Assembly: GCA_965215195.1 (NCBI GenBank)
Contig: CBDCDC010000002.1
Location: 3,520,001 to 3,584,000 of the forward strand
Direction of reading: 5' to 3'
Length of the DNA stretch: 64,000 nucleotides
From: Candidatus Latescibacterota bacterium
GTDB lineage: Bacteria > Latescibacterota > UBA2968 > UBA8231
The first letter of the stretch is position 1; each line of letters begins with the position of its first letter. Positions 19,089-47,066 of this stretch are shown piece by piece. The position numbers were made by a program, and so were the translations under genes. The notes under the pieces were generated by a model. The model was not told the DNA's origin and made no database searches. It was given only the letters and a program-made list of their open reading frames with translations.

Positions 19089-19919
19089 TCAATTACAATC
19101 GGGCGAAGAGAATTCCCTCCTAGTCAGCAGCGGCATAATGGCGGGTTGGCGGCTGAGAAGTAGGAGGCCGGCAAGCAGGATTAGGCTGGCGAGCAGGGCC
19201 AAGGGCATGGGGAGATGTTGGGAGGGGCCTATGCCATCTATGCCTAAGTAAGTGCGCAAGTTGATCCCGGTTATCGAAGCCAAGTTGTTGACCGCGTGGG
19301 CGAGCATGGCAGGATAGATGCTGTGAGTCCAATAGACTAGAGCACCTAGGAAGAGCCCAAAGAGGAAGAGAGGGATCAGTTGCCAAGGGTTGAAGTGCGA
19401 AATGGCGAACAGCAGGGCCGAACTGCCTAGTGCCCAGCGCGGTCCATAATGGGCGTAAAGGCTCGTGAACACAAGCCCGCGGAAGAGAGGCTCTTCGCAA
19501 AACACAGGGGCTAGCACTAGTGTTATCAGTGCCTTCGGGATATTCGCTAGTCCGCGGACAATCTGAATCTCCAGCAGGTTTTTCTGGAAGGATGGCGGCA
19601 TAGATAGGTCTATCAGGCCGAGAAAATAGGCCAGATACAAGTCGAATTCGGCGACTACGAGGCTACAGCAAATAGTCACCGGAATTGTCAGCAACAGGGT
19701 CGTAGCCGGCGTAGCGTTGAACAGAAGCAGGTCTTCGGCGATTAGGCGGTGACGGCGAATATAAAGGACTACAAACCACAAAAGGGTACATTCGGCGGCA
19801 ATAATACCAGCGTGTAGGGATAAGAGGCCGACGATGGGCCAAACAACGAAGTGGGCCAGCAGGAGAGCAGGTAGAGTTACGCGGAGAATCTGGGAGAATC
19901 TGGGATAGTGAGCAGGCAT
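19089..19919 (-). CDS. CPBP (CAAX/Abi) family intramembrane metalloprotease
   Basis: EEPLFRG, FAISH and HAVNN motifs, multiple TMs. Confidence 0.9.
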   Translation of the reverse strand: MPAHYPRFSQILRVTLPALLLAHFVVWPIVGLLSLHAGIIAAECTLLWFVVLYIRRHRLIAEDLLLFNATPATTLLLTIPVTICCSLVVAEFDLYLAYFLGLIDLSMPPSFQKNLLEIQIVRGLANIPKALITLVLAPVFCEEPLFRGLVFTSLYAHYGPRWALGSSALLFAISHFNPWQLIPLFLFGLFLGALVYWTHSIYPAMLAHAVNNLASITGINLRTYLGIDGIGPSQHLPMPLALLASLILLAGLLLLSRQPAIMPLLTRREFSSPDCN

Positions 19920-19998: not shown

Positions 19999-20943
19999 TT
20001 AGCAAGCCGACTTTGAATGGGCAGCCGCCTTTAGATAACCCCGAGTGCGGCTGGACCAGAACAAATAACTAAAAACCAGATCCGGGACATAGGTTTTCAC
20101 AAGCCAGCGGGCCAACCAGCGGATTGGGTAGTGAATCGGCGACAACAGGGCTAGCTGGAGCGCGAGTCGCCGAGGAGAAAATCCACAGGCCCTGATAAAG
20201 TCCAGCCGGAGTACGGCGTCAAGCTCGGGATGCTTGTGCAAAAGGATGGGGATTGACTTGCTACCGTAAGTTTGCATCAGGCGGCAGAGTGGCTCCAATG
20301 AACGCAAGTGATAGTGGTAGGACAGGGCTTCAGGAGCATAGTAAAGCGGAATACCCGCCAAATGGAGGCGATACCCTAATTCTAGGTCTTCGCCGCCATA
20401 AGCAGTGAGGTCCTCGTCGAAAAAACCTACGCGGAGCAGGGACGACCGGCGAACTGAGGAGTTGCCGGTGACGAAGCACTTGAAAGGTATGGGCTTATCC
20501 GCGTCGACCCTGTGGGGCCCCCTCCCTTCGAGATAGCGGGTCAGGGATGTAGTGGGAATTTCACGGGCAAAGCGGATGTTGCCGATAAAAACGGCTTCCG
20601 CGTGGTTTTGATGCCGCTGGGCATGGGCGCGGAGAAAATTCGTGCCGACGGTCATGTCGCTGTCGAGAAAGACGACGAGGTCGCCGCTGGCGACCCGAAG
20701 TGCTGCGTTGCGCGCCCGAGCGCGTCCCTGATTCTGTTCGTTGCGCAGCAGCCGCAATTGTAAAGGCGCGACCGCCGCATGCAATTGCTCGGCATCCAAG
20801 TGGGGGGAGGCGTCGTCCACTACGATGATTTGAATCGCCTCGTGGGGATAATTTTGCTGCGACAGGGTCTTAAGTGCTGCTTCGAGGCGCTCAGGCTCGC
20901 CATAGGTAGGCATTACGACGCTGAGCGTCAGCGGGATATTCAT
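19999..20943 (-). CDS. Glycosyltransferase family 2
   Basis: SVVMPTY, IIVVDDAS, FLDSD, GGEDLELGYRL; start set to ATG 20943 overlapping the upstream stop. Confidence 0.9.
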   Translation of the reverse strand: MNIPLTLSVVMPTYGEPERLEAALKTLSQQNYPHEAIQIIVVDDASPHLDAEQLHAAVAPLQLRLLRNEQNQGRARARNAALRVASGDLVVFLDSDMTVGTNFLRAHAQRHQNHAEAVFIGNIRFAREIPTTSLTRYLEGRGPHRVDADKPIPFKCFVTGNSSVRRSSLLRVGFFDEDLTAYGGEDLELGYRLHLAGIPLYYAPEALSYHYHLRSLEPLCRLMQTYGSKSIPILLHKHPELDAVLRLDFIRACGFSPRRLALQLALLSPIHYPIRWLARWLVKTYVPDLVFSYLFWSSRTRGYLKAAAHSKSAC

Positions 20944-22055
20944 GCTAAAGTTTCGTAAAGCTGGGTGAGTTGAGCGGCTTCCCGTTCCCAATTATAGTGC
21001 TGGGCTGCCTGCAAGCTCGCCTTGGCACAGGCCTCTCGCTGCTCTGCATTGTCCAAAAAAGCGGTGATCTGCTCTCGAATGGCAACTATATTGGTTGGAT
21101 CAACCGTAACTCCGGTACGCGTTTCGCGGACGATGCGCTGCATTTCAGGAAAGTTGCTGGCTAGGATTGGTAACCCGGCCATCATATATTCAAAGAGTTT
21201 GTTGGGCAGAGAGTAGTAGAAGCTCTTGCCCGTGCCTTTGATCAGACACAGCCCCAAGTCGGCCGAGCAAGTATAATTGTGAAGTTGGTGAAAGGGCACC
21301 CGGGGAATAAAATAGACCCGATCGTCTAGCCCGGCAGCGCAGACTTGGTTCCGCAGGGCCTGTTCGCTAGGTCCGTCCCCAATTAGAACTAGGGCGGCGG
21401 CAAGCCCAGCGGCGGCCTCAATTTGCTCGCGCAAGCCATTTTCGGTGAGGAATCCTCCTTGATAGAGCACAATAGGGCGATCATCGGGCAGGTCCAGCGT
21501 TCCGCGTATCAGGTTGCTTTGGACCTTATGGCGGAATAACGGCAAATTGTGCAGAACAACGACCTCGTCAAGGCGGTAGCGCTCCTTGAGTGATTGGGCG
21601 ATAGACCCGCTGACGGTAATGACTCGATCTACCCGTCTTATCAGCCGCCGCTCCAACAAACTCCAGCAGGACCGCATCAGCGGTCGGTTGACAAGTGAGG
21701 ATTGTTCGGTCCAAAATTCGTGTGCGTCGTAGACGATGGGCAAATCTAGTCGCTGTGCAGCTCGCACTGCTGGCCAGAGCGAGTCTAGGTCGTGGGCGTG
21801 ATAAGCATCCGGATGGGTAGCGACCAGCAGTGGATAGGCTCGTTGCCAAAACAAAGGGTAGAGGCGGCGCAGTGAGCGGCTTCGGTCTAGCGGAATCGAA
21901 TGGATTTCAAAATCGTCCCATCCCTTGAGAGGAGTTGGCTTGAACGAGGAGGCGACAATGACGACTTGGTGACCAGCACGGCGCAGCGAAGTGGCCTCTC
22001 GGTAGATGCGGTAGTCGAAATTCAGGTCGGTGAAGGCGACCATACAGATACGCAT
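20940..22055 (-). CDS. Glycosyltransferase family 4
   Basis: HAHD, VYDAHE, SLPNKLFEYMMAGLP; start set to ATG 22055 (MRICMVAF). Confidence 0.9.
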   Translation of the reverse strand: MRICMVAFTDLNFDYRIYREATSLRRAGHQVVIVASSFKPTPLKGWDDFEIHSIPLDRSRSLRRLYPLFWQRAYPLLVATHPDAYHAHDLDSLWPAVRAAQRLDLPIVYDAHEFWTEQSSLVNRPLMRSCWSLLERRLIRRVDRVITVSGSIAQSLKERYRLDEVVVLHNLPLFRHKVQSNLIRGTLDLPDDRPIVLYQGGFLTENGLREQIEAAAGLAAALVLIGDGPSEQALRNQVCAAGLDDRVYFIPRVPFHQLHNYTCSADLGLCLIKGTGKSFYYSLPNKLFEYMMAGLPILASNFPEMQRIVRETRTGVTVDPTNIVAIREQITAFLDNAEQREACAKASLQAAQHYNWEREAAQLTQLYETLA

Positions 22056-22080
22056 GGCGTATAAAGGAATCGGTATAAAG

Positions 22081-22119
22081 ATAAATAAAAAGCAGCCCAT
22101 TTTTAGATGGGCTGCTTTT
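22081..22119 (-). terminator. Intrinsic terminator (could act bidirectionally)
   Basis: AAAAGCAGCCCAT-ttttag-ATGGGCTGCTTTT; U-rich tail on the minus strand. Confidence 0.85.
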
Positions 22120-22284
22120 CAAAGAGTGTGGCGGCCAGACGGTGTGATCTTGAAACGCAAGTGAGATCCTCAAACGAGGCGGTGTGGGGAGGTAATTTTG
22201 AAGATCTCAACGACCCGAAAAGGGAAATCCGAGCTTCGCGAATCAGGATTTTGGCCACGCTAGCGGACCGCCACACTATTTGAA
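22085..22284 (-). ncRNA. Candidate structured non-coding RNA of unknown family
   Basis: Own promoter and terminator; closing stem (22268-22284 pairs with 22118-22134); internal hairpins including a 13-bp stem whose single non-Watson-Crick pair is G-U only on the minus strand. Confidence 0.65.
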
Positions 22285-22288
22285 ACCT

Positions 22289-22317
22289 AAAATACACACG
22301 CTAGATTGTGTTGTCAA
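22289..22317 (-). promoter_or_regulatory. sigma70 promoter with ACAC-N8-GTGT palindrome in the spacer
   Basis: Minus strand TTGACA-ACACAATCTAGCGTGTG (17 nt)-TATTTT. Confidence 0.75.
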
Positions 22318-22354
22318 GTAGAAAAACACATGCACAGAAAACCATAGCGGGGTC

Positions 22355-22383
22355 TTGCACACTTACCAGTGTGTGCATATCTT
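22355..22383 (+). promoter_or_regulatory. XRE gene promoter overlapped by TGCACAC-N8-GTGTGCA palindrome
   Basis: TTGCAC-17 nt-TATCTT; perfect 7-bp-arm palindrome at 22356-22377. Confidence 0.7.
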
Positions 22384-22421
22384 AATGGAGAAAATGGTTG
22401 AAAATAGCAGAGGGATCGCGA

Positions 22422-22955
22422 ATGCAGTTTGCGGAAATGATCAAGGAAGCCCGGTCACGAGCCCATCTGAGCCAGCAGGGATTGGCCGCGCAAGTCGTGA
22501 CGGCACGAAAGCCCAATGGCGTATGGGCAACCTATATAGGACAAATTGAGAAGGGGGAGAAGGTTCCTTCCGACGAAGTATGTATCAAGTTGGCCGAGGT
22601 TTTGGAACTCGACTATAACAGAGTGTTGATTGCTGCTTATGAGGCCAAGGCGGGCTCGGAGGAGGGACGTGCGCTCTATGGCAAGATGATGCGCTCGTTG
22701 TCGGACCCAGTGGTCAATAAGCTCCTGTCTAGCGAAGAGCCTTTGGATCCAGCCCTCTTAGGGGTGCTCTCCAACCCAGAAATCGCGGCTCTGCTCGGGG
22801 ATCAACCGTGGTTAGAGGCAGTTGCCCGGGCGCGCAAGAAACAGAAGGAACGCGATGTGTTGAGGCTGCTCGCTCTAGTAGAGGCGATGGACGACAAACA
22901 GTGGGATATGGTAATGGGCATAATAGGGACTTGGAACTTAGAACCGCCTAATTGA
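22422..22955 (+). CDS. XRE family helix-turn-helix transcriptional regulator
   Basis: IKEAR...LSQQGLA...YIGQIEKGEKVPS....KLAEVL HTH plus an uncharacterised C-terminal domain; AGAGGGA RBS before ATG 22422. Confidence 0.88.
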   Translation: MQFAEMIKEARSRAHLSQQGLAAQVVTARKPNGVWATYIGQIEKGEKVPSDEVCIKLAEVLELDYNRVLIAAYEAKAGSEEGRALYGKMMRSLSDPVVNKLLSSEEPLDPALLGVLSNPEIAALLGDQPWLEAVARARKKQKERDVLRLLALVEAMDDKQWDMVMGIIGTWNLEPPN

Positions 22956-23565: not shown

Positions 23566-24261
23566 TCAGGGCTTGGCTTTATTAACGAGCAATTCGATGG
23601 CATCGCGCAGCCGGGCGGCGTCTTCGTATTCTTCGCAAATAACGGCCTGCTGTAGCTGGTCCTGAAGCAGGCTGAGTTCGTCTTTCTCTTTTTTGAGAGG
23701 CTGCCGGGCTTCGGCCTTTTCGGCGTTCCGCTTAGGTGGACGGATGTTGGCCGTCTCAGATTCTACACTGAGAGATTTAGAAATCTGCGTTTCAAACTCG
23801 TAGAAGCGGTTCAGTGTGTGTTCAACGTCCAAGTCGGTCTCCAAAGGCTCCAAGCCCACCTCGTCAAGCAACGTATGAGAAACGTAGATAGGCGAATCAG
23901 TGCGCAAGGCCAAAGCAATTGCGTCGCTGGGACGTGCGTCAATGTCTTTTATTGTGTGATTCTTCTCAATGACGACTCTCGCGTAGTAAATTGAGCGATG
24001 CACGTTGTGAATGACAACTTGGCGCACATTTATCGCAAGGTAGTTGACCATAGAAGAGAGCAAGTCGTAGGAAATCGGGCGTATAGGTCCATCGTTTTCT
24101 AGCCGCATCCGAATGGCGGCCGCTTCAAATTCGCCGATGGGAATGGGCAAGAGCCGCGGCAGTTCACCTTCCTTCTCGCCTAACCATACCAAGGGCCTGT
24201 CCTCGCGCAAATAGGGACTAACCTTGACCACGGACATCTCGACTAAAGAGGTATTACTCAT
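23566..24261 (-). CDS. Bifunctional nuclease (DUF151) with C-terminal UVR domain
   Basis: LPIPIGEFEA, RPISYDL, IDARPSDAIALALR; EEYEDAARLRD UVR motif. Confidence 0.9.
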   Translation of the reverse strand: MSNTSLVEMSVVKVSPYLREDRPLVWLGEKEGELPRLLPIPIGEFEAAAIRMRLENDGPIRPISYDLLSSMVNYLAINVRQVVIHNVHRSIYYARVVIEKNHTIKDIDARPSDAIALALRTDSPIYVSHTLLDEVGLEPLETDLDVEHTLNRFYEFETQISKSLSVESETANIRPPKRNAEKAEARQPLKKEKDELSLLQDQLQQAVICEEYEDAARLRDAIELLVNKAKP

Positions 24262-24880
24262 TAATCATCTCCCTGTTGAGACGGCTAATCTCGTCGCGAA
24301 GCCGCGCCGCCTCCTCGTAAACTTCTTCGGCAACGGCTTGGCGCATGCGTCTTTTGAGTTGTTCTAGCTGATTGACGGCTGGTGCGGCGATGATAGGCTG
24401 CTCTTCTCGCGGTGCGGTCACGGGTTTGGTGATGGCCTCAACGTCAGCTTTAACCCATTCATCGTCGTCGGAGCGAACGCAGCCTACCTCTTTGAGGATC
24501 TCGACAGCGGCGTAGATCGGCGCACGAAAGCGCAAGGCTAGGGCAATGGCATCGCTGGGACGTGCGTCGAGCGTATGAGTCCTGCCCTCGTCGTCGACGA
24601 GATGAATCTCGGCGTAGTACGTTCTTTCGCGTAAGTTAAAGTCGGTGATTTCGACCCGGACTACCCGGGCATCGACGTCGTCGAGAATCCGATGGGCTAG
24701 GTCATAACTGATGGGTCGTGCGGGTTGCCGCTTGCTGTGGGCCATAGAAATGGCTGCCGCCTCGAAGCGGCCGATGACAATGTGCAGATAATAGTTGCCT
24801 TCGACTTCTTTGAGCACTACTTCAGGGTATAAAGATTGAGATTTGCTGCTTAAGACCCCCTTGACTTCCATCAGAATCAT
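24254..24880 (-). CDS. Second bifunctional nuclease (DUF151) with UVR domain
   Basis: IVIGRFEA, RPISYDL, LDARPSDAIALALR; EVYEEAARLRD. Confidence 0.9.
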   Translation of the reverse strand: MILMEVKGVLSSKSQSLYPEVVLKEVEGNYYLHIVIGRFEAAAISMAHSKRQPARPISYDLAHRILDDVDARVVRVEITDFNLRERTYYAEIHLVDDEGRTHTLDARPSDAIALALRFRAPIYAAVEILKEVGCVRSDDDEWVKADVEAITKPVTAPREEQPIIAAPAVNQLEQLKRRMRQAVAEEVYEEAARLRDEISRLNREMINE

Positions 24881-46967: not shown

Positions 46968-47066
46968 GGGAGCGGATGCGTGCCTGGTGGCTGCCGCGGA
47001 CTTCAAATCCGTTGCGGCGTAGCGAGAGTTGCGCTGGGTGGGTTCGATTCCCACACGTTCCCGCCA
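46968..47066 (+). tRNA. selC: tRNA-Sec (TCA)
   Basis: Anticodon arm GCGGA-CTTCAAA-TCCGT, long variable arm, GGTTCGATTCCC, extended acceptor stem, GCCA end, 99 nt. Confidence 0.95.

What the first reader, a model, noticed from the sequence alone, without database searches (positions are those of the whole stretch)
22085..22284. Unassigned multi-hairpin RNA with its own promoter, terminator and an exposed anti-Shine-Dalgarno loop
Seen on the minus strand: TTGACA-17-TATTTT, then a transcript whose ends pair (UUCAAA-U-AGUGUGGCGG with CCGCCACACU-C-UUUGAA). It encloses hairpins AAAUCCUGA..UCGGAUUU, CCC-UUUUC-GGG, a 13-bp stem UGAGAUCUUCAAA/UUUGAGGAUCUCA (with a G-U pair supporting this strand) and CUUG..CAAG, then a strong terminator. 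The 22-nt loop AUUACCUCCCCACACCGCCUCG contains the anti-SD ACCUCC, and CACACCG occurs twice. Knowledge: C-rich loops are how several sRNAs pair with ribosome-binding sites. Inference: a trans-acting sRNA. Alternatively, since the terminator ends about 30 nt before the GT4 start, it could be an attenuator or riboswitch for the GT4-GT2-CPBP genes.
Basis: partly seen in the sequence, partly recalled or inferred. Interest (0 to 1): 0.85.

Follow-up and report, generated by a model that had tools for sequence, protein, structure and literature searches.

The report
Abundant C-rich-loop sRNA with partner sRNA
This is a real, previously undescribed small structured RNA of one family of uncultivated Latescibacterota bacteria, made just upstream of a sugar-transferase operon, whose large C-rich loop matches, base for base, a second tiny G-rich RNA encoded elsewhere in the genome.

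Summary
The feature is real. On the minus strand, a near-consensus promoter (22317-22289) and an intrinsic terminator (22121-22086) bracket a ~199-nt transcript. It folds far better than shuffles (z -6.7) and matches no Rfam family.

Comparative analysis used 37 unique sequences, then 31 more diverse ones. It supports a closing stem P1, an irregular rod, and a three-way junction with two hairpins that carry C-rich loops.

The RNA is single-copy and was found in 47 of 64 sampled genomes of one family and in 0 of 86 genomes of other families. In 30 of 31 unique loci it lies directly upstream of the same GT4-GT2 operon.

The main new result is that the 22-nt loop is complementary (17-21 bp) to the conserved 5' part of a ~50-nt sRNA. 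That sRNA has its own promoter and terminator and is encoded 770 kb away. One compensatory G:C to A:U change supports the pairing.

Metatranscriptome contigs hint at a very abundant, processed ~133-nt core.

Best reading: a trans-acting, base-pairing C-rich sRNA with a dedicated G-rich partner, comparable to RoxS/RosA or Yfr1/Yfr2, made from the leader of the GT operon. The direction of control and any mRNA targets are unknown.

The parts
22356..22377 (.). Palindrome TGCACAC-N8-GTGTGCA between the XRE gene and the RNA promoter. Putative operator of the XRE-family regulator (inferred).
   Evidence: Found by the repeat finder. Conserved as CACACTTGTAAGTGTG across genus loci.
22294..22330 (.). 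CACA/TGTG inverted repeats overlapping the promoter: TGTGTT-N12-AACACA, and ACACA-N8-TGTGT inside the -35/-10 spacer. Putative operator sites.
   Evidence: The spacer sequence is almost invariant in the 29 loci aligned there. Further CACAC..GTGTG copies lie in the leader of other genera.
22289..22317 (-). Sigma-70-type promoter TTGACA-17-TATTTT of the RNA.
   Evidence: 10 of 12 positions. A TTGAC(A/T)-17-TAnnnT promoter lies 0-100 nt upstream of the closing stem in all 25 lineages inspected.
22085..22283 (-). Predicted primary transcript, about 199 nt including the terminator.
   Evidence: The start is inferred from the -10 box, not measured.
22266..22278 (-). P1 closing stem, 5' strand (UAGUGUGGCGGUC).
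   Evidence: Pairs with 22124-22136. Helix 2 is 99.3% paired, with 3 pairs changed on both sides.
22124..22136 (-). P1 closing stem, 3' strand (GGCCGCCACACUC).
22135..22267 (-). Approximate abundant processed core of about 133 nt (P1b, P1c, P2, P3, P4). The ends are inferred.
   Evidence: Adapter letters abut 22127/22129/22133 in X16. A permuted 3'-to-5' joint in X17 places the ends near 22135 and 22267. High-depth contigs cover only this part.
22213..22234 (-). P3 hairpin GCUCGGA/UUCGGGU with C-rich loop L3 (UUUCCCUU, 22220-22227).
   Evidence: 98.1% paired; U.G to U-A and G.U to A-U variants. The CCCC core of the loop is kept in most divergent members.
22162..22209 (-). P4 hairpin, a 13-bp stem enclosing loop L4.
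   Evidence: 99.8% paired, with 4 pairs changed on both sides.
22175..22196 (-). Loop L4, AUUACCUCCCCACACCGCCUCG. Pairs with the partner sRNA encoded at G000:C2:4311018-4311072 (minus strand), which lies outside the window.
   Evidence: Invariant in the 30 blastn-found loci.
22086..22121 (-). Intrinsic terminator (AAAAGCAGCCCAU..AUGGGCUGCUUUU plus a U run).
   Evidence: A hairpin follows the core in the 26 lineages inspected, with a clear U run in most, and its sequence varies between lineages.
20940..22055 (-). GT4-family glycosyltransferase, the first gene downstream on the same strand.
   Evidence: Pfam Glyco_transf_4 and Glycos_transf_1. Downstream of the RNA in 30 of 31 unique loci.
19999..20991 (-). 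GT2-family glycosyltransferase.
   Evidence: Pfam. Follows GT4 wherever the locus is long enough.
19089..19919 (-). CPBP / Rce1-like membrane protease.
   Evidence: Pfam PF02517.
22422..22955 (+). Divergently transcribed XRE-family HTH regulator of 177 aa.
   Evidence: Pfam HTH_31/HTH_3. Upstream of the RNA in 17 of 31 unique loci.

Best explanation
The locus encodes a family-specific, trans-acting, base-pairing small RNA.

How it is made:
- A strong promoter drives a precursor. In this genus the promoter is probably controlled by the neighbouring XRE regulator, through CACAC/GTGTG palindromes.
- Most transcripts stop at the intrinsic terminator.
- The conserved closing stem P1 and the terminator are then removed. 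This leaves a stable core of about 133 nt: a rod ending in a three-way junction with two hairpins that display C-rich loops.

What it pairs with:
- The large loop L4 (CCUCCCCACACCGCCUCGU) pairs over 17-21 bp with the 5' part (ACGAGGCGGUGUGGGRGG) of a separate sRNA of about 50 nt.
- That sRNA has its own promoter and terminator and is encoded between a GalE-like epimerase gene and a zwf-like gene.
- By analogy with RoxS/RsaE and their G-rich sponges RosA/RsaI, the C-rich RNA is the likelier regulator, acting on G-rich sites that resemble Shine-Dalgarno sequences. The tiny G-rich RNA would be its dedicated anti-sRNA. The reverse is also possible, with the abundant RNA sponging the tiny one.

Link to the operon:
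- A minority of transcripts read through the terminator and supply the GT4-GT2-CPBP mRNA. The RNA is therefore also the leader of that operon.

Shown: the structure, the distribution, the synteny, and the existence and conservation of the complementary partner.
Inferred: the processing, the abundance, the direction of control, any mRNA targets, and the role of XRE.
For: Structure:
- z = -6.71 against shuffles.
- In 37 unique sequences, 93.5% of cells are paired, against 38-46% when the partners are slid. 13 pairs are changed on both sides (shuffle mean 5.8; 0 of 500 shuffles reach it).
- Many G-U pairs fit this strand only.

Distribution:
- CM R1 found it in 47 of 64 sampled genomes of the family and in 0 of 86 genomes of 13 other families of the phylum. 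There is one locus per genome. It is single-copy in the own genome.

Partner RNA:
- The only long complement of L4 in the 6.13-Mb genome is a 14-mer (plus 3 more pairs after a bulge) at C2:4311018-4311072. It lies between a promoter-like site and a hairpin with a U6 run.
- That ~50-nt element is conserved by itself where the flanks are not.
- Its promoters (TTGACA-17-TAnnnT) and terminators recur in other genera.
- Its terminator helix covaries: 98.4% paired, with 4 of 10 pairs changed on both sides (the alignment was fitted to the model).
- CM R2 found an independent locus in 50 of 76 family genomes. A pattern search added 2 more genera.
- In all 19 genomes paired, and in G161 and G160, the conserved seed pairs with L4.
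- Six pairs were scored: 17-21 bp, dG -34 to -44 kcal/mol, against shuffled seeds at -14 to -18 (sd about 3, best -28.6).

Intermolecular covariation:
- In genus g3 (G032, G160) the seed reads CGAGACGG and L4 reads CCGUCUCG, a G:C to A:U change.
- Four other single changes are wobble-compatible: G118 and G032 in L4, G098 and G034 in the seed.
- L4 is near-invariant in the genera where the partner was found and variable in g19, g6, g2, g25 and g16, where it was not.

Expression hint:
- In RNA runs of three studies, contigs that cover only about 22127-22266 have depths of 4.9e3 to 1.7e5. Contigs on GT4 in the same runs have depths of 13-72.
- Adapter letters abut 22127-22133.
- One contig (depth 72) bridges GT4, the spacer and the terminator into the 3' part of the RNA.
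- The tool warns that contig depths are a poor measure of expression.

Analogues in print:
- C-rich sRNAs with G-rich sponge RNAs (PMC8216469, passages read).
- Yfr1's unpaired ACUCCUCACAC (PMC2190773, passages read).
- Yfr1 and Yfr2 carry complementary motifs (PMC6778093, abstract in the search listing only).
Against: - The expression, strand and ends of the partner sRNA were not measured.
- In genus g18 (G120, G100) the seed has U to A with no change in L4, giving an A.A mismatch in the middle of the duplex.
- The compensatory change is a single evolutionary event. Cross-pairing energies differ little (-31.5 and -34.8 against -33.8).
- In g19 (4 genomes searched with a pattern complementary to their own L4 variants) only the antisense of the RNA itself and coding-region hits were found.
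- G115 and G113 keep a near-consensus L4, yet no partner was seen among the loci shown.
- No mRNA target stands out.
- Strict linkage to GT4 (30 of 31 loci) and the lack of room for a separate GT4 promoter in this genome (about 31 nt) would also fit a purely cis-acting leader.
- P1 is highly conserved in sequence, which a mere processing stem does not explain.
- The read evidence comes from contigs of relatives at 85% likeness or more. It does not give the strand, and one RNA run (X15) shows no high-depth contig.
Confidence: 0.55

Rival explanations
1. Mainly a cis-acting 5' leader or attenuator of the GT4-GT2-CPBP operon. The structured RNA senses a ligand, a protein or the tiny sRNA, and sets how many polymerases pass the terminator. 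This would be a riboswitch-like or sRNA-controlled termination, or a processive-antitermination element of the kind known upstream of polysaccharide operons (EAR and put RNAs, recalled). The abundant core would then be only the stable by-product of terminated transcripts.
For: - The RNA is on the same strand as a GT4 homologue and 51-269 nt upstream of it in 30 of 31 unique loci, even where GT4 identity has dropped to 48-53% and the XRE gene is gone.
- A terminator hairpin is kept in nearly all lineages.
- Only about 31 nt separate the terminator from the ATG here, and neither a good promoter nor a Shine-Dalgarno sequence is visible.
- One RNA-run contig bridges GT4, the spacer and the terminator into the 3' part of the RNA.
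Against: - In 20 lineages the terminator arms pair with the core no better than shuffled arms do, and never at a consistent place. There is therefore no classical terminator/antiterminator switch.
- The most conserved nucleotides lie in two apical loops, not in junctions.
- One of those loops has a conserved trans partner.
- Core-only contigs have depths 100-2000 times those of GT4 contigs (weak evidence).
Confidence: 0.25
2. One reading: an anti-Shine-Dalgarno sRNA whose C-rich loops block the ribosome-binding sites of several mRNAs. The tiny RNA would be irrelevant or only one of many targets.
For: - Both loops keep a YUCCCC core even in lineages where no partner was found.
- The organism has a canonical anti-SD 16S tail.
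- It uses SD-like motifs upstream of a share of its ORFs: 36% against 12% in a control window, in a crude ORF set.
- A few RBS-like sites have 11-12-nt complementarity to L4, for example GUGGGGAGGU followed 8 nt later by AUG at C2(-)2202368.
- C-rich sRNAs work this way in Firmicutes and cyanobacteria.
Against: - The number of 12-mer complements (8) is about what chance gives (about 8, my arithmetic).
- No target is conserved or enriched.
- The 19-nt invariance of L4 far exceeds what an SD seed needs, and it equals the conserved part of the partner.
- ACCUCC itself is not kept in divergent members.
Confidence: 0.15
3. A protein-binding housekeeping RNA, for example a very divergent 6S-like RNA or a sequestering RNA for a protein that binds C-rich RNA. 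No 6S RNA is detectable in this genome.
For: - RF00013 finds nothing above its cut-off in the whole genome. The best hit is 16.8 bits against a cut-off of 46.4, at another place.
- The RNA appears very abundant (weak evidence).
- It is single-copy and conserved.
Against: - The architecture is a three-way junction, not a closing stem, central bubble and terminal stem.
- The closing stem seems to be absent from the abundant species.
- It is restricted to one family, found in 47 of 64 genomes. A housekeeping RNA should be wider.
- No 6S hit lies at this locus even at E<=10.
- The loop has an RNA partner.
Confidence: 0.05

Closest known systems
RoxS/RsaE-type C-rich sRNAs with their G-rich sponge RNAs RosA (Bacillus subtilis) and RsaI (Staphylococcus aureus). 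PMC8216469, passages read.
   Same: - An sRNA displays C-rich unpaired regions.
- A separate, stand-alone RNA carries complementary unpaired G-rich regions.
- Processing of the RNAs is part of the system.
- The pair is taxonomically restricted.
   Different: - There is no sequence or Rfam relationship.
- The C-rich RNA here is a core of about 133 nt with a three-way junction, cut from a precursor that is also an operon leader.
- The G-rich RNA is the small one (about 50 nt) and has a single seed.
- The duplex is 17-21 bp, much longer than the C-rich/G-rich contacts described there.
- It occurs in a different phylum.
- No mRNA targets are known.
Yfr1 of cyanobacteria and its counterpart Yfr2. 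PMC2190773, passages read. PMC6778093, abstract in the search listing only.
   Same: - An abundant sRNA with an ultraconserved unpaired C-rich motif ending in CACAC. Yfr1 has ACUCCUCACAC, the window has CCUCCCCACAC, and locus L103 has CCUCCUCACAC.
- A second sRNA family carries a nearly complementary conserved motif.
   Different: - Yfr1 is 54-69 nt, with the motif between two stem-loops rather than inside a hairpin loop.
- There was no Yfr1 hit in the Rfam scan. The weak Yfr10 hit (19.1 bits against a cut-off of 43) lies on the terminator.
- It is not from a cyanobacterium.
- The likeness is best read as convergence.
Riboswitches and leader attenuators with intrinsic terminators.
   Same: A structured 5' leader closed by a P1 stem, followed by a terminator, directly upstream of the same operon in nearly all carriers.
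   Different: - No antiterminator alternative was found.
- Conservation is concentrated in apical loops.
- There is a trans RNA partner.
- The core apparently accumulates to a high level.
6S RNA (RF00013).
   Same: Length class, paired ends, apparent abundance.
   Different: Fails the model and the rod-with-central-bubble architecture.

Membership tests
Any Rfam 15 family | Covariance-model score at or above the family's gathering score | tested here: not met
   - Whole window: only tRNA-Sec and one tRNA.
- 21950-22450 at E<=10: ncr1175 at 27.5 bits (cut-off 60), Yfr10 at 19.1 (cut-off 43), antisense_SR1 at 12.8 (cut-off 45).
- Partner sRNA: four hits of 11-14 bits, all far below their cut-offs.
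6S RNA | Match to RF00013 | tested here: not met
   No 6S hit at the locus at E<=10. The best hit in the genome is 16.8 bits against 46.4, at another place.
6S RNA | Long rod made of a closing stem, a large central bubble and a terminal stem | tested here: not met
   The consensus structure is a rod ending in a three-way junction with two hairpins.
6S RNA | Binds the RNA polymerase holoenzyme and templates pRNA | not testable with these tools
   Needs biochemistry.
Yfr1 | 54-69 nt, with two stem-loops flanking an unpaired 16-20 nt that holds ACUCCUCACAC (PMC2190773) | tested here: not met
   The motif is similar but sits in the loop of a 13-bp hairpin within a 133-199-nt RNA. The window has CCUCCCCACAC.
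Riboswitch / terminator attenuator | Lies in the 5' leader of the regulated genes, on the same strand | tested here: met
   GT4 lies 51-269 nt downstream in 30 of 31 unique loci.
Riboswitch / terminator attenuator | The terminator competes with a conserved antiterminator pairing | tested here: not met
   In 20 lineages, duplex energies of the terminator arms with the core are no better than shuffled arms, and the positions are inconsistent.
Riboswitch / terminator attenuator | Binds a small ligand | not testable with these tools
   Needs in-line probing.
C-rich sRNA with G-rich partner/sponge (RoxS-RosA kind; a functional kind, not a homology family) | Unpaired C-rich regions in the sRNA | tested here: met
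   L3 and L4 are loops of covarying hairpins and hold almost no G.
C-rich sRNA with G-rich partner/sponge (RoxS-RosA kind) | A separate RNA gene with a complementary G-rich region that is conserved | tested here: met
   Transcription of the partner is inferred from its promoter and terminator only.
C-rich sRNA with G-rich partner/sponge (RoxS-RosA kind) | The C-rich regions pair with mRNA ribosome-binding sites | tested here: inconclusive
   Only chance-level 11-12-mers were found. SD motifs are used by this organism.
C-rich sRNA with G-rich partner/sponge (RoxS-RosA kind) | The two RNAs bind in vivo and one changes the level or activity of the other | not testable with these tools
   Needs experiments or raw-read chimeras.

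The most novel reading that the evidence does not exclude
The very abundant species is a covalently closed circular RNA. The conserved P1 stem would bring together two cut sites of a longer precursor, and the excised core of about 133 nt would be ligated end to end. This would be a nuclease-resistant bacterial circular sRNA that titrates a dedicated linear partner sRNA while the same transcription unit feeds an envelope-glycan operon.

The permuted 3'-to-5' joint seen at a depth of about 1.2e4 in one RNA run, and not found in the DNA of five genomes of the genus, does not exclude this. Ligation or template switching during library preparation explains it equally well.
Probability: 0.1. Interest if true: 0.9.

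Novelty: new member of a known kind. Interest (0 to 1): 0.65.

Why it matters
No cultured members of Latescibacterota turned up in what I read, and I found no description of regulatory RNAs for the phylum in the searches or in the passages checked.

This locus gives a testable two-RNA module:
- A structured C-rich RNA that appears to be among the most abundant transcripts of these bacteria in sponge-labelled metatranscriptomes.
- A dedicated G-rich partner with a 17-21-bp match.
- Both genes sit next to sugar-nucleotide or glycosyltransferase genes.

It would extend the logic of a C-rich sRNA with a G-rich anti-sRNA, known from Firmicutes and cyanobacteria, to a distant phylum. It also offers two new covariance models for annotating MAGs. 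In addition, it raises the question of how one transcription unit serves both as an sRNA precursor and as an operon leader.

Tried and rejected
Divergent 6S RNA: rejected.

Classical riboswitch expression platform: no antiterminator was found.

Pseudoknot between L4 and the P1 5' strand: considered by eye on A1/A2. GGCGR and YCGCC do not covary consistently (L038, L033, L111 and L112 break the pairing). Dropped.

RNAcofold of the core with the tiny RNA: unsuited. Pairs between a hairpin loop and a second strand are pseudoknot-like and are not modelled. The ddG values there say nothing either way.

Partner for loop L3: one 14-mer complement at C2(+)2566587, at about chance level. Not followed up.

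Secondary blastn hits of the tiny-RNA query (q111-140 in G003, G006, G011, G020, G024 and G028): the four fetched (G003, G011, G020, G028) lie inside a coding region resembling threonine aldolase (my reading of the translation). This is chance likeness.

Weak R2 hits outside the family cover only the hairpin part of the model. L152, L153, L162, L163 and L164 have no promoter or seed context. All were dropped as false.

Search for a compensating partner in g19 genomes: only the antisense of the RNA itself and coding-region hits were found.

In G113, G115 and G036, no sRNA-like hit was seen among the 6 best loci each. 209 further 2-mismatch matches were not listed.

A tiny ORF in the partner (AUG inside the terminator stem): the AUG is not conserved, since GGCUAGAG and GGCUAUAG variants occur. 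Rejected.

Reads:
- The parts without cover are told here only, as the tool asks. These are 22267-22400 in X16, X17 and X20 (promoter and P1 5' strand), 22024-22104 in X16, and 22051-22131 in X20. They fit a processed core but prove nothing.
- X15 shows even low depth (5-88) across the whole stretch, with no high-depth contig.
- No DNA run was laid.

Literature:
- ('Latescibacteria' + 'small RNA'): 1 irrelevant paper.
- (loose min_terms): nothing on this phylum among the 20 papers listed.
- ('Latescibacter' + 'metatranscriptom' + 'sponge'): 25 papers, of which 12 were listed. None is about ncRNA by title or abstract.
- PMC12993501, searched for ncRNA, small RNA, non-coding and riboswitch: 0 occurrences.
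- Supplements were closed and not seen. They might list highly expressed unannotated transcripts.

The Gemmatimonadota titles of 10 of the 38 exact-match loci are not evidence for a second phylum. Seven of them (L040, L041, L043, L046, L054, L061, L063) have core sequences identical to loci of genomes that the genome search places in the window's family.
Full report
**What is in the sequence.**
- On the minus strand, a TTGACA-17-TATTTT promoter (22317-22289) and an intrinsic terminator (22121-22086; 15 pairs, then a T run) bracket about 199 nt.
- The stretch 22085-22290 folds to -80.8 kcal/mol. Dinucleotide shuffles average -50.9 (sd 4.45), giving z = -6.71, and 0 of 200 shuffles fold as well.
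- The Rfam gathering scan of the whole window finds only tRNA-Sec and one tRNA.
- A permissive scan of 21950-22450 finds three sub-threshold hits, two of them lying almost wholly on the terminator.
- Neighbours: a divergent XRE-family HTH gene (22422-22955, + strand). Downstream on the same strand lie GT4 (22055-20940), GT2 (20991-19999) and a CPBP/Rce1-like protease (19919-19089).

**Whose genome.**
- The invariant 25-mer of the big loop occurs exactly in 38 public contigs. 26 are titled Candidatus Latescibacterota/Latescibacteria, 10 are titled Gemmatimonadota, Gemmatimonadetes, Gemmatimonadaceae or Gemmatimonas, and 2 are titled 'uncultured bacterium'.
- Seven of the Gemmatimonadota-titled loci are identical in the RNA core to loci of genomes that the genome tool places in the window's own family. 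I read those titles as labelling differences, not as evidence for a second phylum.
- The genome has 60% G+C and a canonical 16S 3' end, GGAUCACCUCCUUUCU.

**Distribution.**
- blastn finds the element in 28 of 30 other genomes of the genus, in 2 of 6 genomes of other genera of the family, and in 0 of 24 genomes of other families of the class.
- It is single-copy in the own genome. The second match is the palindromic terminator read on the other strand.
- Covariance model R1 finds it in 47 of 64 sampled family genomes and in 0 of 86 genomes of 13 other families of the phylum. There is one locus per genome. The tool notes that stricter filters were in use.

**Structure.**
- Of the 68 loci, 66 held both sequence anchors. 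Two (L060, L069) were cut by the locus end and dropped. The 66 gave 37 unique cores, alignment A1.
- RNAalifold predicts 39 pairs, 9 of them with compensatory changes.
- I tested a structure of seven helices: P1 outer, P1, P1b, P1c, P2, P3 and P4.
  - 93.5% of cells are paired, against 38-46% when the 3' partners are slid by 1-3 columns.
  - 13 pairs show a change on both sides (shuffle mean 5.8; 0 of 500 shuffles reach it).
  - P1, P2, P3 and P4 are 97-100% paired. P1b (76.7%) and P1c (81.2%) are weaker and partly realigned between genera.
- The architecture is a closing stem P1 (GAGUGUGGCGGUC/GGCCGCCACACUC), an irregular rod (P1b, P1c, P2) and a three-way junction. The junction bears P3 (loop AUUYCCCCUU) and P4 (12-13 bp, loop of 22-28 nt).
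- The abundance of G-U pairs fits this strand only.

**Divergent members.**
- 18 further loci were fetched and aligned to R1 together with 20 of the earlier loci, chosen for diversity. The 38 sources gave 38 forward matches and 7 weak reverse-strand matches, which I dropped. 31 sequences are unique.
- The loop consensus is CCUCCCCACA-YCGCCUCGU. It does vary in the most distant genera, where ACUCCCUACAUCGCC, AUUCCCCACGUCGCC, GAUCCCCAUAUGGCC and others occur.
A YUCCCC core and CCUCGU are.

**Synteny.**
- tblastn on the 31 unique loci finds a GT4 homologue starting 51-269 nt after the core in 30 loci. In L099 there is none within the 1.5 kb held.
- GT2 follows wherever the locus is long enough.
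- XRE is upstream in 17 of the 31. One of the other 14 loci (L033) is cut.
- A hairpin follows the core in the 26 lineages inspected, with a clear U run in most, and its sequence changes from lineage to lineage. The U run is weak in L110, L113, L115 and L117.
- Every one of the 25 lineages inspected has a TTGAC(A/T)-17-TAnnnT promoter, but at 0-100 nt from P1. P1 therefore closes a domain inside a longer precursor.
- In lineages with XRE, CACAC/GTGTG palindromes lie in and around the promoter.

**The partner RNA.**
- I scanned both strands of the own genome for complements of the 22-nt loop. This returns the antisense of the locus itself, one 14-mer and eight 12-mers. By my arithmetic, about eight 12-mers are expected by chance.
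- The 14-mer continues for 3 more pairs after a 1-nt bulge. It lies at G000:C2:4311018-4311072 (minus strand), about 770 kb from the window. It sits between a promoter-like site and a GGCCAUGGCG..CGCUGUGGCC hairpin with a U6 run.
- blastn of that region matches 41 of 71 family genomes. In the more distant genera only the ~50-nt element itself matches, at 81-94% identity for the clearer matches, and not its flanks.
- In those genera it reads ..ACGAGGCGGUGUGGGGGG.. behind a clean TTGACA-17-TAnnnT promoter.
- Alignment A3 has 23 unique sequences. The invariant columns are exactly the stretch complementary to L4, plus the base of the hairpin.
- The hairpin covaries: 98.4% paired, with 4 of 10 pairs changed on both sides. 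The alignment was fitted to the model.
- Model R2 finds an independent full-length locus in 50 of the 76 family genomes:
  - g1: all 31, including the own genome
  - g20: 7 of 8
  - g24: 5 of 5
  - g18: 2 of 3
  - g3: 2 of 2
  - g17: 1 of 1
  - g4: 1 of 1
  - g7: 1 of 2
  - g19: 0 of 10
  - g23: 0 of 3
  - 8 smaller genera: none
- A pattern search adds G130 (g26) and G034 (g5), which have different terminators.
- R2 also hits the reverse strand of the big RNA's loop in many genomes at about 28 bits. This is the complementarity seen from the other side.
- The partner lies between a divergent GalE-like epimerase gene and a zwf-like gene in the two genera inspected (g1, g20). The names are my reading of the N-terminal motifs.
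- Rfam has nothing for it.

**Test of pairing.**
- In the 19 genomes for which I paired the two RNAs, and in G161 and G160, the seed pairs with L4.
- Six pairs were scored with loop and seed alone: 17-21 pairs at -33.8 to -43.5 kcal/mol. Shuffled seeds give -13.8 to -17.9 (sd about 3, best -28.6).
- In genus g3 (G032 and G160) the seed reads CGAGACGG and the loop reads CCGUCUCG. This is a G:C to A:U double change, one event seen in two species.
- Other single changes keep a wobble pair: L4 A to G opposite U in G118, L4 C to U opposite G in G032, and seed C to U opposite G in G098 and G034.
- Against: in g18 the seed has U to A with no change in L4, giving an A.A mismatch.
- Against: in four g19 genomes a pattern complementary to their own diverged loops found only the antisense of the RNA itself and coding-region hits.
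- Against: G115 and G113 have a nearly consensus loop, but no partner was seen among the loci shown.
- Overall, L4 is near-invariant in the genera where the partner was found and variable where it was not.

**Expression.**
- Six metatranscriptome runs hold a small share of the sampled words of 21700-22500. Four were laid as Logan contigs at 85% likeness or more.
- In X16, X17 and X20, from three studies, contigs that cover only about 22127-22266 have per-contig depths up to 1.6e4, 1.7e5 and 4.9e3. Contigs on GT4 in the same runs have depths of 18-50, 72 and 13-17.
- The tool states that contig depths sum over relatives and cannot rank genes, so this is a hint only.
- Other positive observations:
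  - Adapter letters abut 22127, 22129 and 22133 in X16. Fragments therefore end inside the P1 3' strand.
  - One X17 contig (483 nt, depth 72) runs from GT4 through the spacer and terminator into the 3' part of the RNA of an L023-type relative. This is a read-through transcript or DNA.
  - One X17 contig (depth 1.2e4) joins the 3' region (to 22142) to the 5' region (from 22260) through 14 letters. These letters match an L023-type relative, with the junction just inside P1 on both strands.
- That junction was not found in the DNA of five genomes of the genus, allowing up to 3 mismatches.
- I infer a processed core of about 133 nt (about 22267 to 22135). Whether the junction reflects a circular RNA or ligation or template switching in the library cannot be told.
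- X15 shows no high-depth contig.
- Strand and exact ends are not given by contigs.

**Cis or trans.**
- The terminator arms pair with the core no better than shuffled arms in 20 lineages, and never at a consistent place. A classical terminator/antiterminator riboswitch is therefore unlikely.
- The strict linkage to GT4, the 31-nt gap without a visible promoter or Shine-Dalgarno sequence, and the bridging contig suggest that the GT operon is fed by read-through.
- I conclude that the unit is both an sRNA precursor and an operon leader.
- The organism does use SD motifs: 36% of 2898 crude ORF starts against 12% in a control window. Pairing of the C-rich loops to ribosome-binding sites therefore remains possible, but no target stands out.

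**Comparison with what is known.**
- The closest functional analogues are C-rich sRNAs neutralised by G-rich sponge RNAs: RoxS and FsrA with RosA, and RsaE, RsaG and RsaD with RsaI (PMC8216469, passages read).
- Another analogue is the cyanobacterial Yfr1, an abundant sRNA with the unpaired ultraconserved ACUCCUCACAC (PMC2190773, passages read). Its motif is nearly complementary to that of Yfr2 (PMC6778093, abstract in the search listing only).
- The RNA here is not a member of any of these families. It shares no model match and has a different size, fold and phylum.
- I found nothing in print on regulatory RNAs of Latescibacterota (searches; passages). Supplements were not available.

**Unexplained.**
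- P1 is nearly invariant in sequence even though it seems to be removed.
- L4 and the seed are permuted versions of the two P1 strands (CCACAC+CCGCC and GGCGG+GUGUGG).
- The role of loop L3 is unknown.
- The meaning of the permuted junction is unknown.

**Verdict.**
- A real and new RNA family with a newly found partner RNA. The kind of system is known.
- Confidence is high (about 0.9) that the structured RNA and the complementary partner gene exist.
- Confidence is moderate (0.55) for the trans-acting pair model as stated.

Noticed in passing
G000:C2:4311018-4311072 (minus strand; outside the window; loci L119/L120): A conserved sRNA-like gene of about 50 nt with a promoter, the G-rich 5' part ACGAGGCGGUGUGGGRGG, a terminator hairpin and a U run. 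It lies between a GalE-like epimerase gene and a zwf-like gene and is complementary to loop L4. It became part of the finding.
   Followed up: yes
window 46968-47062 (+): A tRNA-Sec gene (71.9 bits), so the organism probably makes selenoproteins.
   Followed up: no
window 23566-24261 and 24254-24880 (-): Two tandem paralogous genes, each with a bifunctional-nuclease domain (BFN_dom) plus a UVR motif, next to the XRE gene.
   Followed up: no
L023 and L024 (genomes G001, G022), 3' side of the RNA: The P1 3' strand is duplicated (GGUCGCCACAU then GGCCGCCACAC). P1 can therefore form in two registers in these two species.
   Followed up: partly
L026-L029 and other genera (L047, L050, L057, L038), between the promoter and P1: A leader of about 85-100 nt is inserted between the conserved promoter and the RNA. 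It carries a further CACAC..GTGTG palindrome, which may be an extra operator.
   Followed up: partly
L109, L111, L112, L114 (genus g19), spacer between the terminator and GT4: A direct repeat TTGACC-N8-9-TTTTGACCAC is conserved in the spacer. It may be a regulator site or a separate promoter for GT4 in that genus.
   Followed up: no
Downstream of the partner sRNA terminator in several genera (L150, L151, L154-L158, L216): A short conserved motif (A/T)TTGCTCGG(A/G)ACC follows the terminator. Its meaning is unknown.
   Followed up: no
G000:C2(+) about 2566587 (outside the window): A 14-nt complement (GCCCGAAAAGGGAA..) of loop L3 plus its stem, in a low-GC intergenic-looking stretch. It is at about chance level.
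   Followed up: no
window 22053-22070 (-), start of GT4: The GT4 start CCAUGCGUAUCUGUAUGG can form a 6-bp hairpin that holds the AUG, and no Shine-Dalgarno sequence precedes it in any lineage looked at. The pairing is broken in L043, so it may be only a coding constraint (MRICMV).
   Followed up: partly
Partner sRNA in genera g1 and g20: The 5' part can fold on itself (CUCACAC/GUGUGGG, loop GAGGCG). This would present GAGGCG for a loop-loop kiss with CGCCUC of L4. Other genera lack this 5' hairpin.
   Followed up: partly
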